Shown: positions 225-20,973 of the stretch, piece after piece
How the letters are laid out: the number at the start of each line of letters is the position of its first letter
How positions within the stretch are numbered: position 1 is the stretch's first letter
Origin: a virus
IMG/VR virus record: IMGVR_UViG_3300035698_012504
Location: 250,694 to 275,542 of that record
Strand: one strand, 5' to 3'
Length of the DNA stretch: 24,849 nucleotides
Notes under the pieces: model-generated
Seen by the model: only the letters and a program-made list of their open reading frames with translations
Told to the model about the DNA's origin: nothing
The model's database searches: none
Program-made: the position numbers and the translations under genes

Positions 225-1298
225 TTATACTATTAAGAAATCGACTACCTTTTCTTTAGTTTCCTCGTTAGATAACATTCCTTCAAATACTTGTCTACAT
301 ATATCGGCATCAAATGCGGCATCATGTAAATTTTCTTGATTGAATTTAACATTATAATAATGAGCTGCCTCTAATAAGGTTGGTTTTTTATATTTAAAAT
401 TAGGGTGGAATTTATTAAGTGGTAATCTCATAACACTTGTATTGGTTCCACATGTACAAAATGAATATGTCCAATGCATCTTAGAGAACCTTCTATCAAA
501 CGTAGAGTTATGTGCTACAAAATGTTTTATACCTTTGCAATATTTTTCTATAGATGTTAAATCATTTCTATAAAATTCGGGATATGTTGCATCTCCTCTA
601 AATTCTGTAATGGTTTTATGAGTTAATCCATTTACAGCTACTGCTCTTGGATCATAACATCCTGACTCAGAATAGTAATATCTAATGTATGGTTCTACGT
701 CATCACAATCAACTACTTCCATCTTATCAAGATCTACAATTGCTCGTATAGCGCAGACAGATAATACATGATCTTTCTTCTCACTCACTCCTGTGGTCTC
801 GAAGTCTATAAATATAAGTGGAATAGATCCCCACGTCTTTATTTTATTAGCTTCTTCTTTAGCATAAGTATCACAGAGTTCGTTATACTTATTTCCTTTA
901 TGAGCCTCAACGTATTCTGCTAATACATTAAATTTCTTGAGGATCTCATTTATTTCTTTCCATAGATTTACATGAGCAATTTCTAATTTTTTACTATTCA
1001 TCCAACCATTACATGACCACTTCTGCAACCAACTATTTATAGAATTACAAACATATTTTGAGTCACTAAAAATCTTTACATTTGTTCCAGGTTCAAAGTT
1101 ATTATTAATATGTACTAATGAACTATAAGCAGCCATTACTTCCATTGCGCTATTTGTAGTATTCTCTTTATTACCTTTTAGTACTTCTAATTCTTTTCCA
1201 TCTTCTAAAACAACTGCTGCCCATCCTCCAGGAAATGTTCCTTTCTGATTATTACCTAAACATGAACCGTCAGTATATACAACTATCTCCTTACTCAT
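225..1298 (-). CDS. Fusion protein: N-terminal RNase HI domain plus C-terminal DnaQ/RNase-T-like DEDDh 3'-5' exonuclease
   Basis: The N-terminus matches RNase HI closely. '[23 protein letters not shown]' aligns with E. coli RnhA '[20 protein letters not shown]'. '[11 protein letters not shown]', '[18 protein letters not shown]' and '[18 protein letters not shown]' align with 'TTNNRMELMAA', 'STDSQYV..GITQWIHNW' and 'GHAGHPENERCDELARAA'. The C-terminus carries the exonuclease motifs: Exo I 'FIDFETTG', Exo II 'FVAHNSTFD' and Exo III '[14 protein letters not shown]' with the DEDDh histidine. Its stop overlaps the next gene by 8 nt. Confidence 0.85.
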   Translation of the reverse strand: [357 protein letters not shown]

Positions 1299-2053: not shown

Positions 2054-2446
2054 CTACTCCTTACTATTATAAACATCAGGGTCAAGATCTCTATTCCTAA
2101 GAATAGAAAAAATTATTTTCGGTATTGATGTGAGTTCCAGTTTAGGTACAAATATATCGACTACTTCAAACCCTTCTACATCCATATTAGGAACATCGTT
2201 ACCACTCATTAAAATTCCTACAGTAGTTGGGCTAAATCTTTTAATCTCCCTAATAAAATCTACACCATTCATTCCAGGCATTCTAAAATCTGAAATTACA
2301 ATATCATAAAACGGATGTAGAAGTGTTTCCCTTGGATCAGTTTTTACTTCTATTTCAATATTCTTCATGCTGCTCTCTAAGATATCAACAGCCAAATCTC
2401 TGATCATTTCATCATCGTCTATTAACAGAATCACTATTTTTTCCAT
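2054..2446 (-). CDS. Stand-alone response-regulator receiver domain (CheY-like), with no output domain
   Basis: It has 'ILLIDDDEMIRD' (the acidic pair), 'DIVISDFRMPGMNG' (the phospho-acceptor Asp), 'VGILMSGN' (the conserved Ser/Thr) and 'FVPKL' (the conserved Lys). The protein is 130 aa. A GGAG ribosome-binding site lies upstream at 2453-2458, read on the minus strand. Confidence 0.8.
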   Translation of the reverse strand: MEKIVILLIDDDEMIRDLAVDILESSMKNIEIEVKTDPRETLLHPFYDIVISDFRMPGMNGVDFIREIKRFSPTTVGILMSGNDVPNMDVEGFEVVDIFVPKLELTSIPKIIFSILRNRDLDPDVYNSKE

Positions 2447-2467: not shown

Positions 2468-2493
2468 AGAAAAAAAAGGCATTGTGCCTTTTA
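2468..2493 (-). terminator. Rho-independent terminator between the Ro60 gene and the receiver gene
   Basis: Read on the minus strand the sequence is 'AAGGCA-caa-TGCCTT' followed by 7-8 T residues. The stem is 6 bp with a 3-nt loop. It starts immediately at the TAA stop of the Ro60 gene. Because it is flanked by an A-run upstream and a T-run downstream, it could act in both directions. Confidence 0.6.
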
Positions 2494-4110
2494 CGATTGC
2501 TGTGTTTCTATTTGGTTAGAAATGTCGATCATTTTTCTTGCGAACATCAGAACGCTGTGGCTCCAACCTCCAAGAATAAATGTTCTTCTGTAATACTCTG
2601 GAATTATTGTATCCTGATACCCAGCTGTCTGGACTAGGAATACATTAATATTAGGATTCACTTTTGTTCTATATCTATTTACAAGTTTGGGGACATCTAT
2701 ATATTGACCTGAGTTCGGGAATATGAAATCAGAGTAGGACGATTTATCTGATCCATACAATCCACCATGACCAGCTTGCATATCGGAATACACAAACAAG
2801 TTATCATAATGAATTTCCTTCTGAGTTATTTCATCTAAGGCCAACCAGATGCCATGCTCAGTACCGTGACCTATGCTCACGCCAATCTTATTAACTTCTT
2901 TTAGTTGATCAAATACAGAACTTCTTTTTCTTACATCATGGTATTTTAATCTATCCCCAAATACACCAATGACTCCTTCATCGGAAATCATTCCGGTAAG
3001 TATACCCATCATGTTTCCAATCTCCGCAACTGTTACTGATGAGTATTCTCCCGGTCCTGAGTCATAAGCACTACCAGAGTTATCGGTGAGTATTAGAGAT
3101 TTACCTGGAAGCTGAGGAAGCTCAGGCATTGATTTCATTAGACTATCTTCAAGTGCATCTAATATCTTAGCAGAACCAGTTGGATGTGCATTCTTTACTG
3201 CCATATATGCTGTCCAGTATCTAAATGGTAATAACATTCCACGTTCAGCAGATTTAGTCATCTTATCAACAATTAGATCCTGATCCACATCAGCAGTAAT
3301 TAAATTTCTAAGATTTTTAACTATTGCAAAGTGTCCCATAACGCCTAGACACTTATCCCAAGACTCACCTTTGGATCTTAATGCTTCCCAAGTTTCGTCA
3401 TTGAGTTTAAGTTCACCGCCTACTAAAGCACGGATATCATCGTTCCATTGAAAGTCAATCATATTAATAACATCAACAGTTTTGACTTCTCTTGATTCCA
3501 TTCTATATTTAGCAAGTTCATATTTCTTAGCTATTAGAAATCTATCTGCCCAAGATCTCTTAAGACTATTGGGTACAGGTTTTCCAAATGCTTTTAACTG
3601 ATATGCTAATTGAGTAGCTGGCTCGTCCATTCTCCTGAGAATTGAAGGAGCATACTTTCTTATTAGGCCAGTGCCTTTTACTTTTAAATGATTTGCAGCT
3701 CTTACCATTATTACTTGAGGAGTAACTCTTATCTTGTCTTCATTTCTAAGTGCAGCTGCAATATAAAGAGTTCCTTCTGGATCGAATGCTAATGCTTCAT
3801 CAATTGCTCGTTCCATCAATTCAGTTGGCTTAAGACTTCTCCAATCATATTTATCTATTGCATCTAAACTTTCTCTTAAATATTTTATTTGGGTGTCTGA
3901 TAATGTGGATGATTTTCTTGCTTCATCAAAACTTTTCTTTTTTCCAGAACCAGAGGAAGTGTAATACTTCGGTTCTCCAAAGAAACATGACGCAGCCATT
4001 GCTCTTAATCTTACTAGTGGAGTAATGTCAAAACTTGTTCCAGCCATAAAATTTTTGTGGGAATCTTTTCTCACTGCCGTCGACTTGGTCTTGTTAATCG
4101 TTGCCATCAA
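2491..4110 (-). CDS. rsr: Ro60/Rsr orthologue: TROVE domain plus von Willebrand A domain
   Basis: The length (539 aa) is close to human Ro60 (538 aa) and Deinococcus Rsr. 'RAMAASCFFGEPKYYTS' matches Ro60 'RFLCFGSEGGTYYI'. The vWA MIDAS motif 'LILTDNSGSA' lies near residue 335, matching Ro60 'LLAVDVSASM' near residue 375. The later vWA segments 'IGHGTEHG' and 'VFLVQTAG' correspond to 'PAGGTDCS' and 'VFIVFTDNET'. The start codon is TTG or ATG at 4110 or 4107, with an AAAGGA ribosome-binding site. Confidence 0.8.
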   Translation of the reverse strand: MMATINKTKSTAVRKDSHKNFMAGTSFDITPLVRLRAMAASCFFGEPKYYTSSGSGKKKSFDEARKSSTLSDTQIKYLRESLDAIDKYDWRSLKPTELMERAIDEALAFDPEGTLYIAAALRNEDKIRVTPQVIMVRAANHLKVKGTGLIRKYAPSILRRMDEPATQLAYQLKAFGKPVPNSLKRSWADRFLIAKKYELAKYRMESREVKTVDVINMIDFQWNDDIRALVGGELKLNDETWEALRSKGESWDKCLGVMGHFAIVKNLRNLITADVDQDLIVDKMTKSAERGMLLPFRYWTAYMAVKNAHPTGSAKILDALEDSLMKSMPELPQLPGKSLILTDNSGSAYDSGPGEYSSVTVAEIGNMMGILTGMISDEGVIGVFGDRLKYHDVRKRSSVFDQLKEVNKIGVSIGHGTEHGIWLALDEITQKEIHYDNLFVYSDMQAGHGGLYGSDKSSYSDFIFPNSGQYIDVPKLVNRYRTKVNPNINVFLVQTAGYQDTIIPEYYRRTFILGGWSHSVLMFARKMIDISNQIETQQS

Positions 4111-4565
4111 ACTATCCTTTCACGTCACTTCGGATCCACGGACCCGAACTTTAAAAATGGGGAGAATATCGCAAGGGCGATTTTTTCGCTTTTGATCCTT
4201 ATTCAAATGAAGTAACCCTTACATTCACTACCCCGAAAAATATATAAATAATATAAATTTAAGAAAAAACAGGAAAAGCTCGATCTGGTGTTGGTCTTCG
4301 CTGGCGCTCACTAGCCGATGGCTAGCAGCGTTCCAGCTCCATGAAGTAACCAAATCAATCACTACCTGTAAAAATCAACGCGAGATAAATAGCGACAGAG
4401 TATATGTTTCATTTTAAAGAAGTAACTCTATCTTTCACTACTCGCTAAAAACATTGGGAAAAAATCAACTAGGTGTTTGTTTCATTTAAAGGTGAAGTAA
4501 CCCAGTCATTCACTACCCAAAAAAAGATAAATCATCGTTCTCACTATTTAATATATATAGTATAT
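4111..4565. ncRNA. 455-bp non-coding locus with four direct repeats and a GC-rich hairpin; candidate structured RNA or RNAs, possibly Y-RNA-like, with strand unresolved
   Basis: No ORF of 60 aa or more is present. Four copies of the motif GAAGTAAC-N(6-8)-TCACTAC(C)-N(3-5)-AAAAA begin at 4209, 4343, 4419 and 4494. A roughly 60% GC imperfect hairpin sits at 4300-4337 in otherwise AT-rich DNA. The region lies directly upstream of the Ro60/TROVE gene. Read on the minus strand each repeat is TTTTT..GGTAGTGAAT..GGTTACTTCA. Confidence 0.4.
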
Positions 4566-5867
4566 CTAAACCTGGTAAACCCATTCATCATCTTCGAAAA
4601 TATTTTTTGTATCTATTATAATATCTGAGTATTCTTTTATAATACTATAATCCACATTATCATGATCAACTGCAATTATTACAGCATCAGATCGTTTACA
4701 TATTGTCTTGAGATCTTCTGATTCAAAACTATAATGTTTATCTACATAAGGATCATGATAAGTAATGTTAGCCCTTCTGAAAAGCAACTGTTCCAATATA
4801 GCAGTGCCGGTAGAGTTTCTAACGTCTCCCACATTCTTTTTGTAAGCCAATCCAATAATAGCAATGTTAGCTCCTTTCACAGGTTTGTCCGCAGAATCTA
4901 AAATCCATTTAATCTTGTCTATTAAAATATCTAATGATTTTTTATTGACGCCTGTACATGCGTCTATGATGGGGGTATCGACCCCATGTTTATTCGATTC
5001 ATATTTAAAATAATATGGATCTACTCCTATACATTCTCCGCCTATAGATGCAGTTGGATAGAATGGAGAAAATCCAAATGGTTTTGTACTTGCCAATTCT
5101 ATCACTTCTTTTAAACTAATTTCCATTTGATCGCAGAATTGTTTGACTTCATTCATAAAAGATATGTTTACAAATCTATACATATTTTCTAATAGCTTTG
5201 TTAGTTCTGCTACATGAGTTCCTGAAGCTTCTACTACTTCATCTACAATATTTAAATATAGTGCTTTTGCAATAGCAGTCGAAACTGGATCAACTCCCCC
5301 AACAATCTTTGGAGTATTTTCTAAAGTATATAATTTATTTCCTGGGTCTACTCGTTCAGGACTAAATGCAACATATCCTTCGAATCCTCTAGATCTTGTT
5401 GGGTTTAACTTGTCATCTTTAAAACGCCAGAAGTTTTTGTTTGTAAACCCAGGATACACTGTACTTTCTAATACAATTAAAAAATCAGACTTCCCATAAC
5501 TTACAATGTTATTATGAATAGTGTCAATCAATATTTCTAAGTTCTTTACTTCTGGTTTATTATTAATGGTTGGGGTTGGAACACATATGATTATACAATC
5601 ACAATCTACTAAGATTTTTTTCGGAGGCTTTTCCCAACATGTAAATAATTCCACACCGTGATTTAAAATATCTAGTTCTTCATCACTTATATAACTTATA
5701 TCACACTTACCCGATTTAAGTTTTTTAATCTTTCTTTCATCTACATCAAATCCCCTGACTCTGAATCCTGCCTTTGCGAATTTAAGGGCCAACGGCAAAC
5801 CTACGTAGCCAAGTCCAATTATACCAATTTTAGCTTTCTTGGTTTCTATTTTTTCTAATAATTCCAT
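4566..5867 (-). CDS. Nucleotide-sugar dehydrogenase (UDP-glucose/GDP-mannose dehydrogenase family, WbpA/WecC-like UDP-N-acetyl-hexosamine dehydrogenase)
   Basis: It has an N-terminal Rossmann motif 'KIGIIGLGYVGLPLA'. The catalytic-cysteine motif 'IGGECIGVDPYYF' matches the 'GGHCIPVDPYY' of the WbpA/WecC branch. The C-terminal domain contains 'IIGLAYKKNVGDVRNS'. The protein is 433 aa. Confidence 0.85.
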   Translation of the reverse strand: MELLEKIETKKAKIGIIGLGYVGLPLALKFAKAGFRVRGFDVDERKIKKLKSGKCDISYISDEELDILNHGVELFTCWEKPPKKILVDCDCIIICVPTPTINNKPEVKNLEILIDTIHNNIVSYGKSDFLIVLESTVYPGFTNKNFWRFKDDKLNPTRSRGFEGYVAFSPERVDPGNKLYTLENTPKIVGGVDPVSTAIAKALYLNIVDEVVEASGTHVAELTKLLENMYRFVNISFMNEVKQFCDQMEISLKEVIELASTKPFGFSPFYPTASIGGECIGVDPYYFKYESNKHGVDTPIIDACTGVNKKSLDILIDKIKWILDSADKPVKGANIAIIGLAYKKNVGDVRNSTGTAILEQLLFRRANITYHDPYVDKHYSFESEDLKTICKRSDAVIIAVDHDNVDYSIIKEYSDIIIDTKNIFEDDEWVYQV

Positions 5868-17682: not shown

Positions 17683-20600
17683 TTAAAATCCACCGCCACC
17701 ACCCATGCCACCAGGTGCTTCCTCGCCTTCATCTTTACCTTCAATCTTATCTTGAAGCTTCTGAGCTCTCTCAAATTTATCAATTTCTTCCCAAGGAAGG
17801 TTAAGATATTTCTTACATAACCATTCTTTATTAACTCCAAGTTCTTCTAATATTTGAACAATAGATTGTATTTGTTGAAAGTGCTCACCTTCCCGTTCTA
17901 TTTGAAGTAGCTTAGGAGGTGAAAATGTAACTAAAATTCCTACTGGTAATTTTTCATTTCTTATATATTTATATAATTTAGAGAACAAGCTCATTATATT
18001 TCGTGTAAGCATTTGTTGATACGCTACAATAGTTCTGGCAAATACATCATTTTCATGTGCAAGTGCAGCTTTATTACTATTATGAATAAATATACCAGCC
18101 GAAACTGCAAAGTTATGGTATGTCTCTACTCTGATATCACCACAATCGATTTTATATGATAATTTTTCAACTTTAACTACTTTATGGTTTAATATCAGTT
18201 CTTTTACTTCTCTCTTTCTAGTAAATATTTCACTTCTCTGTTGTGCTGTAGAAACTGCCCGATACTTATTTAAACAATTAGGATTATAACAAATAGTCTT
18301 ATATTGTTTTTCTTCCCAAGTGCCAAATCTTGAAGCCTCGGTGTAAACATAAAGATTTTCACATACTTCACAATATCTATATTCTATATTAGACCATAGA
18401 CGTCCTTTAAGTTTAGTCATTGATATGTTAGCTTTTCTAACCATCTTAGCACAATAATTATCATCGCAATTATACCATTTATATGGTTGCTCTTCTAATT
18501 GTTTCTTTAATTTTTTTGTTAACGTCTTAGTAAATTGCTTGCCACAATGAGAACATGACATAGTTATTTCTGGAAACTTTTTATCATAATCAATTTTACG
18601 AGAATCCCATGATAAACGACCTGTTTGTTGATGTCTTATTTTTCTACAAGCAGACGAACACGTCGTTTGAACTGTATCAGATCTATTAGTAAATGTTTTA
18701 CCACATATTTCACACGTTCTTTCCTCATATGAAGTACCAGGTACAGACAGTTCGAATAATTTTTTACGATTTTCTTGTAATTTTGTAAGTTCTTCTTTTG
18801 AAAATAACTTTGTACGGGCATGTAATGCAAGATGATCTCCAGCGGATAAACCCACTAAATTTTTAGTAGAATTGTTCAATGGATTCATATCTATATGATG
18901 ACAATGCTCATTACTAACAGCCATCTTTGTATAATGACTAAATGATCTATGCATCCAATCCCAAACATCTATTCCCGGATGATAAACATAATTATATTTA
19001 GTAGCTTTTTCTTTATTTCTACTTTTAATATAAGGTTTCATTTTCTTATAAAACGGCATTAAAGAATCACCTGGTTGTAAAGAACCAGCTTCAACATATT
19101 CACCACTTCTTTTCATCATTTTATGTTCAGGAGTAATTATTAAAAATTCACCATTATCTAATGTTATCTTAACAGCATCTACATCAAATTGAGTATATCC
19201 GGCCCATGTGACTTTATTCGGAAATACAACCCCCAAATCTTCATCATAAGAAATAACTTCAAATTCTTCACCTTTTTCAAATCTATCTATCATTTCTTTA
19301 AGGAGGATTTTCTTTCCATTAGTCAATTCGATGTAAGTCGTTGATACACAAGAAGATAGATTCTCCTCGAGGTTCATATATGCGGGAGGCACGTCTAAAC
19401 TAGACACTAACATATCCCTGAAAAACTTTAATTCATCTGTAACATCTCTGATGTTAGTTGGTGATTCTATTCTATCAAACTGAATTGCAGGTTCACCACC
19501 CCTTGGTCTTGGTATATAATATTCTTCATAAGATGTTATCATTGAAGGTATTGAAGAAATATTTCCCCAACTATCCACACTATGCTTTCTCTTCTTAGTC
19601 TTCTCTTGGAAGTCGGCAATAATATTTCTTACTTGTCTATCGGGAGAGGCATCAACGATAATCATCCTTTTATCACTAGAGTCAGATACTCTCTTAATAG
19701 TAACAGCTACTTCTAATGCTATCAATAACTTAGCCTGCCACATTGATTTGTAGAATATACTTTCTCCGTATGGGAAGAATCTCTTATTATAAATACAAAA
19801 ATGCTCCATCCGTTCAGGCGGAACATATCTTACTATTAACTTCTGATCATCTGTATTTTTTATCTCAGCCATTGCTCTGTTAATCAAAGTAACTAATTCT
19901 TTCTTATCTACTTTAGCATCCTTGGCAACATTTACACGACCTATATACTTAGAGACTGCTTTCATTATTTCTGCATATACTTTTTCTACTCCCGATAGAT
20001 TAGTATTTCTTGGATCATATCCAGTAATTTTCTTATTTAGATTCTGATTTGTTTTCATGGTCGCCCCAGACGAACTATTACTATTAATAGGAATAACTAA
20101 ATATCCTAAACACATTTTAAATCGTCTGGATTGTATCTTTATAACAGCTCTAGAATCGTGTACTATTAGTTTAATCTCTTCTAAAGCAGATTCTAGATTT
20201 GGTTTATCACTTGTAGGATTATCTTCATCTTTTTTCTTTTTTCTTACAGCTTCATCTATTACTACAACTGGCTCTATAGTTTTAGTATAGGCTTCACCAT
20301 TTTCATTAAGATATTCTATGTCTACTGATTCTAGAGTCATAACAGCATCTTCTGGCAATCCTTGCCTATCTGCTTCTGTAAGAATAACTTGAGTAACTGG
20401 TACCTCTTTAGATTTGTAACTAGCAAATTCTACGAACTGATCTCCGTACGATAAAGTATTACTTATTATATCATGTATCTCACCTTCTAAACCTAGATGG
20501 TCAGATATTGCTCTTATATCGCCTATTTTACTTTTATCTTTTTCTGATAGATCTTTTCCTCCAGTGATGTTGATGACCTCTTTCGAAACATCATCGGGGG

Positions 20601-20973
20601 ATAGGATACCATCTGTAATAACTTTTAATGCTCTAGAACAATAAGGTATATTGTCAACTATCTCATCTGCGTTATTATATCTCCAATATCTACCTTGTAG
20701 TTCTTCTGAATCTACTAGTTCTTGTGTTAAATCTCCAAGTGTCTTTTTGGCCCAGCTCTCATCTCCACCAACATCCATAGATTTAATAATAGAATTTTTA
20801 ATAACTTCGGCATATTTAAATGAATGTTTATCCACTATAGTATCTGATATTTTATCTAGTACATCATCGACATTATCTAGTTCCTTCTTGGTTGTTGTAC
20901 CAATTATCTTGGACACTATTTTGTCAAATGAGGACTGAATAGGATCAGATACTTTATTTTTCTTTTTTGCCAT
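17683..20973 (-). CDS. Portal protein, T4 gp20-like, interrupted in frame by a 424-aa intein
   Basis: The exteins match T4 gp20. 'AKLLIALEVAVTIKRVSDSSDKRMIIVDA' aligns with '[26 protein letters not shown]'. 'YEEYYIPRPRGGEPAIQFDRIESPTNIRDVTDELKFFRDML' aligns with '[43 protein letters not shown]'. Once the intein (residues 542-965) is removed, the mature portal would be about 672 aa. The C-terminus is 'GGMGGGGGF'. Confidence 0.8.
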   Translation of the reverse strand: MAKKKNKVSDPIQSSFDKIVSKIIGTTTKKELDNVDDVLDKISDTIVDKHSFKYAEVIKNSIIKSMDVGGDESWAKKTLGDLTQELVDSEELQGRYWRYNNADEIVDNIPYCSRALKVITDGILSPDDVSKEVINITGGKDLSEKDKSKIGDIRAISDHLGLEGEIHDIISNTLSYGDQFVEFASYKSKEVPVTQVILTEADRQGLPEDAVMTLESVDIEYLNENGEAYTKTIEPVVVIDEAVRKKKKDEDNPTSDKPNLESALEEIKLIVHDSRAVIKIQSRRFKMCLGYLVIPINSNSSSGATMKTNQNLNKKITGYDPRNTNLSGVEKVYAEIMKAVSKYIGRVNVAKDAKVDKKELVTLINRAMAEIKNTDDQKLIVRYVPPERMEHFCIYNKRFFPYGESIFYKSMWQAKLLIALEVAVTIKRVSDSSDKRMIIVDASPDRQVRNIIADFQEKTKKRKHSVDSWGNISSIPSMITSYEEYYIPRPRGGEPAIQFDRIESPTNIRDVTDELKFFRDMLVSSLDVPPAYMNLEENLSSCVSTTYIELTNGKKILLKEMIDRFEKGEEFEVISYDEDLGVVFPNKVTWAGYTQFDVDAVKITLDNGEFLIITPEHKMMKRSGEYVEAGSLQPGDSLMPFYKKMKPYIKSRNKEKATKYNYVYHPGIDVWDWMHRSFSHYTKMAVSNEHCHHIDMNPLNNSTKNLVGLSAGDHLALHARTKLFSKEELTKLQENRKKLFELSVPGTSYEERTCEICGKTFTNRSDTVQTTCSSACRKIRHQQTGRLSWDSRKIDYDKKFPEITMSCSHCGKQFTKTLTKKLKKQLEEQPYKWYNCDDNYCAKMVRKANISMTKLKGRLWSNIEYRYCEVCENLYVYTEASRFGTWEEKQYKTICYNPNCLNKYRAVSTAQQRSEIFTRKREVKELILNHKVVKVEKLSYKIDCGDIRVETYHNFAVSAGIFIHNSNKAALAHENDVFARTIVAYQQMLTRNIMSLFSKLYKYIRNEKLPVGILVTFSPPKLLQIEREGEHFQQIQSIVQILEELGVNKEWLCKKYLNLPWEEIDKFERAQKLQDKIEGKDEGEEAPGGMGGGGGF
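18079..19350 (-). mobile_element. Intein (Hint domain plus HNH homing-endonuclease domain plus Cys-rich zinc-ribbon motifs) inserted in the portal gene
   Basis: The intein begins with Cys ('NLSS|CVSTTYIELTNGKK', block A) and ends 'FAVSAGIFIHN|S', which is the block-G His-Asn followed by a +1 Ser on the C-extein. The internal HNH motif is 'EHCHHIDMNPLNNSTKNLVGL...DHLALH'. Several CxxC pairs are present ('CEICGKTF...CSSAC', 'CSHCGKQF', 'CEVCENLY...CYNPNC'). I verified the nucleotide boundaries by hand: TGT at 19350-19348 and AAT at 18081-18079. Confidence 0.7.

What the first reader, a model, noticed from the sequence alone, without database searches (positions are those of the whole stretch)
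4262..4340. GC-rich structured element embedded in the AT-rich intergenic island
About 60% GC against a background of about 30%. It is an imperfect hairpin: GCTGG(4300-4304)/CCAGC(4333-4337) encloses CTAGCC(4311-4316)-gat-GGCTAG(4320-4325). On the minus strand it is followed about 25 nt later by the U-rich stretch 'GCUUUUCCUGUUUUUUCUU' (4261-4278). This could be the structured core or 3' end of a non-coding RNA; Y RNAs and YrlA have GC-rich stems. It could also be a processing site or a protein-binding site. A local GC spike of this kind is typical of a functional RNA in AT-rich phage DNA.
Basis: seen in the sequence. Interest (0 to 1): 0.6.

Follow-up and report, generated by a model that had tools for sequence, protein, structure and literature searches.

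The report
Tandem Y-RNA-like genes beside phage Ro60
The GC-rich hairpin is the variable tip and 3' end of the third of four tandem small structured RNAs that sit just upstream of a phage Ro60 (TROVE) gene and look like a divergent, tRNA-domain-less form of bacterial Y RNAs, the known RNA partners of Ro60.

Summary
The hairpin sits at the stated coordinates. GC is 54% over 4262-4340 and 66% in the hairpin, against about 33% around it. The U-rich tract is also there.

The hairpin is not a stand-alone element. The 455-nt gap upstream of a phage Ro60/TROVE gene (2491-4107, minus) holds four direct repeats. On the minus strand each folds the same way: closing stem, UAGUGA, an 8-10 bp helix, UUACUUC plus a variable insert, the helix 3' strand, a U-rich loop, the closing stem, then a U-run. 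The finding is the 54-nt insert plus the 3' half of unit C (4369->4269).

The helices differ in sequence between copies but stay complementary. The same scaffold recurs in about 25 phage and bacterial loci, including Bacillus phage G, Chloroflexota and Myxococcota. It lies on the Ro60 strand wherever a Ro60 gene is in view. Eleven of 46 relatives carry a T-loop-like insert, some with the full YrlA-type tRNA-like module.

Rfam YrlA does not reach threshold, the GNCGAA motif is only approximated, and no tRNA-like domain is present. I read this as a new variant of the known Y RNA kind. Expression and Ro60 binding are inferred, not shown.

The parts
4269..4369 (-). Unit C, the Y-RNA-like unit that contains the finding. 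Closing stem ACAGG 4369-4365 / CCUGU 4273-4269; UAGUGA 4364-4359; helix 2, 4358-4349 with 4289-4280; UUACUUC 4349-4343; 54-nt insert 4342-4289; 3' internal loop GCUUUU 4279-4274.
   Evidence: MFE = centroid structure, -42.5 kcal/mol, z -4.49. The same fold is kept when the whole 461-nt region is folded. Repeat family D1 and exact motif match.
4300..4337 (-). GC-rich imperfect hairpin (GCUGG aa CGCU GCUAGCC auc GGCUAG u GAGCG CCAGC). This is the variable apical module of unit C and the core of the finding.
   Evidence: 65.8% GC. No equivalent in units A, B or D. Inserts at this position in relatives range from 15 to 98 nt.
4261..4268 (-). U-run (UUUUUCUU) directly after the closing stem of unit C. 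Probable 3'-end or termination signal of the unit.
   Evidence: Sequence. Four or more consecutive U within 12 nt after the closing stem in 18 of 46 family units, including all four window units.
4454..4520 (-). Unit A. Closing stem UUGGG/CCCAA; UAGUGA; helix GACUGGGU/ACCUAGUU; UUACUUC; 20-nt insert.
   Evidence: (z -1.73).
4380..4445 (-). Unit B. Closing stem GCGAG/CUCGC; UAGUGA; helix GAUAGAGU/ACUCUGUC; UUACUUC; 18-nt insert.
   Evidence: (z -3.01, 0/200 shuffles).
4159..4234 (-). Unit D. Closing stem GGGG/CCCC; UAGUGA; helix GUAAGGGU/GCCCUUGC; UUACUUC; 31-nt insert.
   Evidence: (z -1.89).
2491..4107 (-). Ro60/TROVE (Rsr-like) protein gene, 538 aa, immediately downstream of the four units on the same strand.
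   Evidence: Pfam TROVE, weak. 39% identity over full length to Bacillus phage G gp540 'TROVE domain ribonucleoprotein'. About 50-56% identity to >100 TROVE proteins. PDB hit to Thermus phage phiLo Ro60 9KOP/9L5Y, E 6e-11.
4550..4579 (-). Weak sigma-70-like promoter candidate (TTTACC-18-TATATT, 9/12) about 25 nt upstream of unit A. Possible start of a polycistronic precursor.
   Evidence: Consensus match only, not evidence of function.

Best explanation
The interval 4262-4340 is the apical insert plus the 3' half of the third of four tandemly encoded small RNAs on the minus strand. They lie between a UDP-glucose dehydrogenase gene and a phage Ro60/TROVE gene. The units are A 4520->4454, B 4445->4380, C 4369->4269 and D 4234->4159.

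Each RNA folds into a Y-RNA-like scaffold. The 5' and 3' ends form a closing stem of about 5 bp. Next comes an asymmetric internal loop with conserved letters: 5' UAGUGA, 3' U-rich, ending in UCU in most relatives. A second helix of 8-10 bp follows, and then the conserved UUACUUC opens an apical region that differs per unit.

My inference is that the conserved scaffold is the Ro60-binding module. The variable apical module would then bind or mimic something else, giving each Ro60 RNP a different partner or regulatory behaviour. In unit C that module is the GC-rich 17-bp hairpin. In related RNAs it is a YrlA-type tRNA-like T-arm/stem/D-arm domain. This two-module division of labour is described for Y RNAs (Chen et al. 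2014, PMC4201824; phiLo Ro60, PMC12135203).

Units A-C are separated by 10 nt or less, so they are most likely made as one precursor and then trimmed. The U-run after each closing stem marks or stabilises the 3' end.

Shown: repeats, folds, compensatory changes, recurrence beside Ro60 genes. Inferred: transcription, processing, Ro60 binding, role of the hairpin.
For: (1) There are four exact matches to GAAGTAAC-N8-TCACTAC, all in this 455-nt gap and nowhere else in the 24.8 kb. With up to 3 mismatches allowed, 0.69 are expected; only 1 of 100 shuffles gave 4.

(2) Unconstrained MFE folding of each unit on the minus strand returns the same two-helix architecture. z = -1.73, -3.01, -4.49, -1.89. 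The centroid of the whole 461-nt region keeps all four.

(3) The N8 of each repeat is complementary to a segment downstream in its own unit although the sequences differ: GACUGGGU/ACCUAGUU, GAUAGAGU/ACUCUGUC, GAUUUGGU/ACCAGAUC, GUAAGGGU/GCCCUUGC. The closing stems behave the same way.

(4) The same scaffold occurs in about 25 loci from phage contigs and bacteria. The variable 11 nt are perfectly paired in 41% of 71 units, against 4% of 2696 swaps with other units' sequences.

(5) On a 42-sequence insert-excised alignment, 96.9% of cells are paired, 12 of 13 pairs change on both sides, and the covariation score is 1.08. Shuffled gives 0.25 (0/500 reach the observed value); slid registers give 0.26 or less.

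(6) 18 of 25 loci show a TROVE gene within the fetched stretch, always on the same strand as the units.

(7) 11 of 46 units have a T-loop-like GUUCRA in the insert. Those read by eye (e.g. L016 4637-4771, L125) carry the T-arm, stem and D-arm in the permuted YrlA order. Two get sub-threshold Rfam YrlA hits: L002 29.7 bits E 7e-5, phage G 36.2 bits. This fixes the strand and ties the scaffold to Y RNAs.

(8) Minus-strand folds of units A-C are 2.7-6.4 kcal/mol more stable than their plus-strand mirrors, because of G-U pairs.
Against: There are no expression data and no Ro60-binding data. Rfam YrlA (RF02553) and Y_RNA give no hit in the window, even at E <= 10 on 701 nt. The canonical GNCGAAN0-1G / GGUCCGA motif is not present in the units; the closest is AGUGAAUG, 6 of 8 positions. 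No tRNA-like domain is present.

The covariation alignment was built by choosing the 3' halves for complementarity and by excising inserts, so its numbers lean towards the structure. The swap control is the fairer test.

A covariance model built from the non-window members found only parts of units D (15.7 bits, E 0.009) and B (12 bits), because the excised model cannot bridge the inserts.

Units A and D on their own fold only modestly better than shuffles. Unit D folds slightly better on the plus strand. The GC hairpin itself has no homologue elsewhere, so its specific role is a guess.
Confidence: 0.75

Rival explanations
1. The four units are not separate RNAs but a long structured 5' leader of the Ro60 mRNA. 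It would be a cis-regulatory element, for example binding sites through which Ro60 controls its own synthesis.
For: The units are directly upstream on the same strand with almost no spacers. Only one weak promoter candidate lies ahead of unit A. The last 40 nt before the start codon contain CCGAAGUGA, a Y-RNA-like motif, next to the Shine-Dalgarno sequence.
Against: In relatives the same units also lie downstream of the TROVE gene or inside tRNA arrays. Examples are L002 5179-5314, which sits between tRNA genes, and L038, L043 and L099. Each window unit ends in its own U-run. Known Y RNAs are likewise encoded next to rsr yet act in trans (PMC4201824).
Confidence: 0.1
2. The repeats act at the DNA level. 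They could be iterons of a replication origin, or an array of phage-specific promoter or operator sites, with the GC hairpin as a spacer or cruciform.
For: Four direct repeats at 75-134 bp spacing lie in an AT-rich intergenic region. An AT-rich stretch lies beside them.
Against: The helices covary while the protein-size motif stays fixed, which is RNA-type conservation. G-U pairs favour one strand. The motif recurs in unrelated phages (Bacillus phage G, human-gut phage contigs) and in Chloroflexota and Myxococcota chromosomes, always beside TROVE genes, and sometimes encloses tRNA-like modules. This does not fit a phage-specific origin or promoter.
Confidence: 0.04
3. The GC hairpin with the U-rich tract is simply the intrinsic terminator of the upstream UDP-glucose dehydrogenase gene, or of a short transcript.
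For: A GC-rich stem of -27 kcal/mol is followed downstream by U6 on the coding strand.
Against: The U-run starts 22 nt after the hairpin, not 0-2 nt. The terminator scan finds no minus-strand site here. The hairpin is enclosed by two further helices. Two complete units lie between the upstream stop codon (4566) and the hairpin.
Confidence: 0.03
4. The units are decayed tRNA or tRNA-like pseudogenes left from a phage tRNA array and have no present function.
For: Relatives of the scaffold sit in tRNA arrays and some enclose tRNA-like modules.
Against: ARAGORN and the Rfam tRNA model find nothing in the window. The conserved letters are not tRNA letters. Helices keep pairing through compensatory change, which argues for selection.
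Confidence: 0.05

Closest known systems
YrlA (Rfam RF02553), bacterial and phage Y RNA-like RNAs encoded next to rsr/Ro60 (Chen et al. 2014, PMC4201824)
   Same: Encoded within 4 kb of a Ro60 orthologue on the same strand. The 5' and 3' ends pair. A conserved motif sits just inside the closing stem, a second helix follows, and then a YUAY (here UUAC) opens the apical domain. Relatives that share the window's scaffold carry the permuted T-arm/stem/D-arm tRNA-like module typical of YrlA.
   Different: The window units have no tRNA-like domain. The 5' motif is UAGUGA(A/U)(U/A)G rather than GNCGAAN0-1G. The Rfam model gives no hit in the window and only 20-36 bits (gathering score 69) on relatives that do have the tRNA-like module.
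YrlB (Salmonella) and Yrn2 (Deinococcus): second, shorter Y RNAs without a full tRNA-like domain
   Same: Short Ro60-associated RNAs encoded beside a longer Y RNA or the rsr gene, consisting of little more than the Ro-binding stem and a small apical region.
   Different: Per Chen et al. 2014, YrlB has orthologues only in other S. enterica serovars and carries GNCGAA. The window has four such RNAs in tandem and no long partner.
Yrl1 and Yrl2 of Thermus phage phiLo (PMC12135203)
   Same: A phage-encoded Ro60 with more than one Y RNA-like sequence in the non-coding region directly upstream of its gene, in a stem-bulge-stem design. The window's Ro60 is detectably related to phiLo Ro60.
   Different: The phiLo RNAs were picked by a CGAA motif. 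The window units use a different conserved motif set, and there are four of them. Binding was shown experimentally for phiLo, not here.
Vertebrate Y RNAs (Rfam RF00019)
   Same: Terminal stem, internal loop, U-run at the 3' end, partner of Ro60. The human Y1 5' end GGCUGGUCCGAAGGUAGUGAGUUAUCUC contains GGUAGUGA and GUUAUCUC, close to the units' GGUAGUGA ... GUUACUUC. The string itself was confirmed in papers, including one on Y-RNA fragments. Its assignment to the Y1 5' end, and the Y1 structure used below, are from memory.
   Different: No Rfam Y_RNA hit. In Y1, GUAGUGA pairs with UCACUAC in the upper stem, whereas in the units it is in an internal loop with no such partner. Eight extra nucleotides separate the two motifs. 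This is a lead only.

Membership tests
Y RNA (Ro60-associated ncRNA, general) | Encoded next to, and on the same strand as, a Ro60/TROVE gene (the bacterial and phage rule of Chen et al. 2014: within 4 kb) | tested here: met
   The units lie 52-413 nt upstream of the TROVE start (4107) on the minus strand. In 18 of 25 related loci a TROVE gene is in view, always on the same strand.
Y RNA (Ro60-associated ncRNA, general) | About 70-130 nt; 5' and 3' ends pair into a stem; internal loop or bulged helix below an apical domain | tested here: met
   Units are 66-101 nt. MFE folds give closing stem + internal loop + second helix + apical region in all four. Pairing is supported by the swap control and pair counts.
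Y RNA (Ro60-associated ncRNA, general) | Physically bound by Ro60 | not testable with these tools
   Needs RIP/CLIP or EMSA with the phage Ro60.
YrlA (RF02553) | Reaches the Rfam gathering score (69 bits) | tested here: not met
   No hit in the window at gathering threshold or at E <= 10. Relatives with a tRNA-like insert score 19.8-36.2 bits.
YrlA (RF02553) | tRNA-like domain (T-arm, acceptor-like stem, D-arm) | tested here: not met
   No tRNA or tRNA-like hit in the window. The inserts of units A-D are 18-54 nt without a T-loop. Met in 11 of 46 related units by the GUUCRA criterion.
YrlA (RF02553) | GNCGAAN0-1G motif near the 5' end | tested here: not met
   The units read UAGUGAAUG / UAGUGAAAG / UAGUGAUUG, 6 of 8 positions at best. 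Phage G units read (A/U)GCGG. Unit C has AGCGAAG in its insert (4303->4297), not at the 5' end.
YrlA (RF02553) | Conserved YUAY opening the apical (V) region after the second helix | tested here: met
   UUAC of the invariant UUACUUC directly follows helix 2 in all four units and in all 42 aligned relatives.
Intrinsic (rho-independent) terminator | GC-rich hairpin followed within 0-2 nt by a U-run | tested here: not met
   For the GC hairpin the U-run is 22 nt away. The scan finds no minus-strand terminator. The U-run instead follows the weak 5-bp closing stem.
tRNA | Cloverleaf detectable by ARAGORN or Rfam RF00005 | tested here: not met
   0 genes in the window.

The most novel reading that the evidence does not exclude
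The UAGUGA / UUACUUC / UCU scaffold may define a widespread, uncatalogued class of Ro60 adaptor RNAs in phages and in Chloroflexota and Myxococcota. A constant Ro60-docking platform would display interchangeable apical modules: nothing, simple hairpins such as the one flagged here, or whole tRNA-like domains. A phage array such as this one would then encode a set of adaptors that point one Ro60 ring at several different partners or substrates during infection. The letters shared with the vertebrate Y RNA 5' region (GGUAGUGA, GUUAYCUC) would reflect an ancient Ro60 recognition element.
Probability: 0.25. Interest if true: 0.7.

Novelty: new variant of a known kind. Interest (0 to 1): 0.5.

Why it matters
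Ro60-Y RNA particles are conserved from bacteria to humans, but how bacterial and phage Ro60 recognises its RNAs, and what the RNAs' second module does, is known for very few cases. Chen et al. 2014 noted that their models found few Y RNAs in delta-proteobacteria and cyanobacteria and that more remained to be found. The scaffold seen here occurs next to Ro60 genes in Myxococcota, Chloroflexota, Bacillus phage G and many uncultured phages, and it escapes the Rfam YrlA model. It may therefore account for part of that gap. It also gives a compact, testable consensus for Ro60 binding. The tandem array with different apical modules is a natural experiment on modularity. For annotating this window, it explains an otherwise puzzling 455-nt gap.

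Tried and rejected
- Rfam, whole window at gathering score and 4000-4700 at E <= 10: nothing relevant; the best hits were chance snoRNA/miRNA/RT-9 matches.
- ARAGORN: no tRNA or tmRNA.
- blastn of 3900-4800 against 50,697 phage records: no match.
- The search for related loci with the Ro60 protein in viral contigs: no confirmed relative.
- First pattern search used the wrong spacer, N9 instead of N8: 0 hits.
- MAFFT on insert-excised units with natural 3' loops misaligned the closing stems (A1). It was replaced by fixed-length constructs (A2).
- Covariance model R1 from the 38 non-window constructs cannot bridge the excised inserts. It recovered only part of unit D (15.7 bits, E 0.009) and a spurious-looking alignment of unit B, so it gave no usable membership E-value.
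- Genome-collection scan: 118 of the 120 returned loci show no TROVE gene within the fetched stretch and look like chance matches. Only L199 (Polyangiales) and L229 (Paraliomyxa) carry TROVE beside the motif.
- The Rfam YrlA alignment on relatives placed the model's basal stem on different helices in different loci. The exact correspondence between the YrlA stems and this scaffold is therefore my inference, not a result.
- The supplement of Chen 2014 and the 2020 Annual Review are not held.
- Small ORF 4228-4362 (44 aa, GTG, minus), which overlaps unit C, was considered and dropped. It starts with GTG, lies entirely inside the RNA structure, and there is no sign of conservation.

Full report
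**1. The observation**

The window is AT-rich (34.6% GC) and all long ORFs are on the minus strand. GC is 54% over 4262-4340, 61% over 4279-4340 and 66% in the hairpin 4300-4337. The remainder of the intergenic region is 32%, and only 0.08% of 62-nt windows in the 24.8 kb reach that GC. Folded alone, the interval has z = -2.36 on the minus strand (3/200 shuffles as good) and z = -1.08 on the plus strand.

**2. Context**

The element lies in a 455-nt gap (4111-4565). Upstream is a UDP-glucose dehydrogenase gene (4566-5867, minus). Downstream is a 538-aa gene (2491-4107, minus).

That downstream protein is a Ro60/TROVE homologue:
- a weak Pfam TROVE hit;
- 39% identity over its full length to Bacillus phage G gp540, annotated as a TROVE ribonucleoprotein;
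- 50-56% identity to more than a hundred TROVE proteins;
- a PDB match to the Ro60 of Thermus phage phiLo (9KOP/9L5Y, E 6e-11).

The phage itself is novel. Its T4-type major capsid protein is only about 24% identical to jumbo-phage capsids, and blastn of the region finds nothing.

**3. What the gap contains**

The repeat finder reports a four-copy direct repeat. The exact pattern GAAGTAAC-N8-TCACTAC occurs four times, at 4209-4231, 4343-4365, 4419-4441 and 4494-4516, and nowhere else in the window. Read on the minus strand, the strand of the Ro60 gene, each copy is GUAGUGA-N8-GUUACUUC and starts a unit of 66-101 nt.

Unconstrained MFE folding of each unit gives the same architecture:
- a closing stem of about 5 bp between the unit's ends (UUGGG/CCCAA, GCGAG/CUCGC, ACAGG/CCUGU, GGGG/CCCC);
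- an internal loop with UAGUGA on the 5' side and a U-rich 3' side;
- a helix of 8-10 bp whose 5' strand is the N8 (GACUGGGU/ACCUAGUU, GAUAGAGU/ACUCUGUC, GAUUUGGU/ACCAGAUC, GUAAGGGU/GCCCUUGC);
- UUACUUC, followed by an insert of 20, 18, 54 and 31 nt.

The z-scores are -1.73, -3.01, -4.49 and -1.89. The centroid fold of the whole 461-nt region keeps all four units. A U-run follows each closing stem.

The finding (4262-4340) is therefore the 54-nt insert of unit C, together with the 3' strands of its two helices and its U-run. The GC hairpin is the one part of unit C that has no counterpart in units A, B and D.

**4. Relatives**

A second phage carries a TROVE gene at 53% identity (L002, JGI contig Ga0114918_10000068). 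It has five units with the motif GYAGUGR-N8/9-GUUACUUC, four upstream and one downstream of its TROVE gene. Three of them enclose a T-arm (GGGUUCAAAUCCC) or a whole tRNA-like sequence.

A pattern scan of IMG/VR returned many chance hits in coding sequence. It also returned about 20 loci with structured, often tandem units in tRNA arrays and next to TROVE genes.

Bacillus phage G, a cultured phage, has one unit with a T-arm/stem/D-arm insert and five short units in the 1-kb gap upstream of gp540. These carry the variant 5' motif (A/U)GCGG but the same ...CAG-UUACUUC...CUG...AUCU design.

The scaffold also sits upstream of bacterial TROVE genes in an Aggregatilineales genome (Chloroflexota, L125) and a Polyangiales genome (Myxococcota, L199).

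Across 25 loci:
- 18 show a TROVE gene within the fetched stretch, and the units are always on its strand;
- 11 of 46 units have a T-loop-like GUUCRA in the insert;
- insert length ranges from 15 to 98 nt.

Units such as L016 4637-4771 show the permuted order T-arm, stem, D-arm. That order is the hallmark of YrlA (PMC4201824).

**5. Is the pairing real?**

Searching a 160-nt stretch for a complement is permissive, so I used a swap control. The test took only the five variable nucleotides of helix 2 and six nucleotides of the closing stem. All 11 are paired in 41% of 71 units with their own downstream sequence. Only 4% of 2696 trials reach that when the 5' nucleotides of another locus's unit are used.

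On a fixed-length, insert-excised alignment of 42 units (A2):
- 96.9% of cells form standard pairs;
- 12 of 13 pairs show changes on both sides;
- the covariation score is 1.08, against 0.25 for shuffles (0/500 reach it) and 0.26 or less for slid registers.

This alignment was built by picking complementary 3' halves, so it leans towards the structure. The swap control and the unconstrained folds are the independent support.

Strand: units A-C are 2.7-6.4 kcal/mol more stable on the minus strand. The tRNA-like inserts of relatives read correctly only on the motif strand.

**6. Mechanism (inference)**

Y RNAs are modular. One module binds Ro60, and the other binds or mimics something else (PNPase; tRNA mimicry) (PMC4201824; PMC12135203).

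By analogy, the conserved scaffold would be the Ro60-docking module, and the insert would be the specificity module. The scaffold consists of the closing stem, the UAGUGA/U-rich loop, helix 2 and UUACUUC. On this reading the flagged GC hairpin is the specificity module of unit C. Its partner is unknown.

Units A-C are 10 nt or less apart, so a common precursor that is then processed is most likely. A weak promoter candidate lies about 25 nt upstream of unit A.

**7. Comparison with known families**

Rfam 15 has no family that covers these units. There is no hit in the window. On 16 related loci there is no gathering-level hit other than tRNA, tmRNA and GOLLD. YrlA reaches only 20-36 bits on relatives that have the tRNA-like module.

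Of YrlA's defining features:
- Met: position and strand relative to Ro60, the terminal stem, and the YUAY (UUAC) after the second helix.
- Not met in the window: the GNCGAAN0-1G motif (closest is AGUGAAUG), the tRNA-like domain, and the Rfam score.

The units resemble the short second Y RNAs (YrlB, Yrn2) and the two Yrl RNAs upstream of the phiLo Ro60 gene in kind, but not in sequence.

The human Y1 5' end, GGCUGGUCCGAAGGUAGUGAGUUAUCUC, shares GGUAGUGA and GUUAYCUC-like letters. The string is present in the literature. No Rfam Y_RNA hit supports homology, and, from memory, those letters sit in a different structural setting in Y1. I record this as a lead only.

**8. Verdict**

The finding is a real, non-random feature.

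The kind of system, phage Ro60 with adjacent Y-like RNAs, is known. The motif set, the lack of a tRNA-like domain, the four-fold tandem arrangement with different apical modules, and the breadth of the uncatalogued scaffold make it a new variant.

Confidence that these are Ro60-associated structured RNAs is about 0.75. The specific role of the GC hairpin is unknown.

Noticed in passing
window 4113-4150 (minus strand), 5' UTR of the Ro60 gene: A hairpin, CGGGUCC-GU-GGAUCCG, is followed by CCGAAGUGACGUGAAAGGAUAGUUUGAUG. CCGAAGUGA is identical to the start of a Y-like unit in Polyangiales L199 (CCGAAGUGAUGACGAGGGUUACUUC) and recalls vertebrate GGUCCGAAG. The Shine-Dalgarno AAGGA sits where helix 2 would start. 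This could be a decayed fifth unit or a Ro60 autoregulatory site.
   Followed up: partly
L123 (Bacillus phage G, NC_023719) 765-925 and 2250-2935: One YrlA-type unit and five short units of the same scaffold, with the variant 5' motif (A/U)GCGG, lie upstream of gp540 (TROVE). None is among the record's annotated features. This gives a cultured system in which to test the family.
   Followed up: partly
L125 2250-2830 (Aggregatilineales, GCA_015075625.1); L199 4860-5060 (Polyangiales MAG): The same scaffold lies directly upstream of bacterial TROVE genes in Chloroflexota and Myxococcota. Chen et al. 2014 reported few YrlA hits in delta-proteobacteria, the older classification that included today's Myxococcota.
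   Followed up: partly
L043 1525-1913: A GOLLD RNA (RF02032, 222.8 bits) lies about 1.5 kb from a TROVE gene and Y-like units, inside a large tRNA array of a 345-kb phage contig.
   Followed up: no
L002 5179-5314: A Y-like scaffold whose insert is a near-complete tRNA-like sequence (Rfam tRNA 43.8 bits at 5208-5280, not called by ARAGORN). It sits between genuine tRNA genes downstream of the TROVE gene.
   Followed up: no
window 4168-4194 (plus strand): A terminator-like site is found on the plus strand (ATCGC-AAGG-GCGAT + T6). It is the mirror image of unit D's insert and helix 2. No plus-strand gene converges on it.
   Followed up: no
window 17683-20973 (minus): The T4-type portal protein gene is interrupted by an intein (Pfam Intein_splicing 1.4e-16, residues 551-965).
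   Followed up: no
window 2054-2446 and 225-1298 (minus): A 130-aa receiver-domain (Response_reg) protein is encoded directly downstream of Ro60 (precomputed Pfam on the identical contig L001). Further downstream is an RNase H-DEDD exonuclease fusion. The receiver-domain protein may be co-transcribed with Ro60.
   Followed up: no
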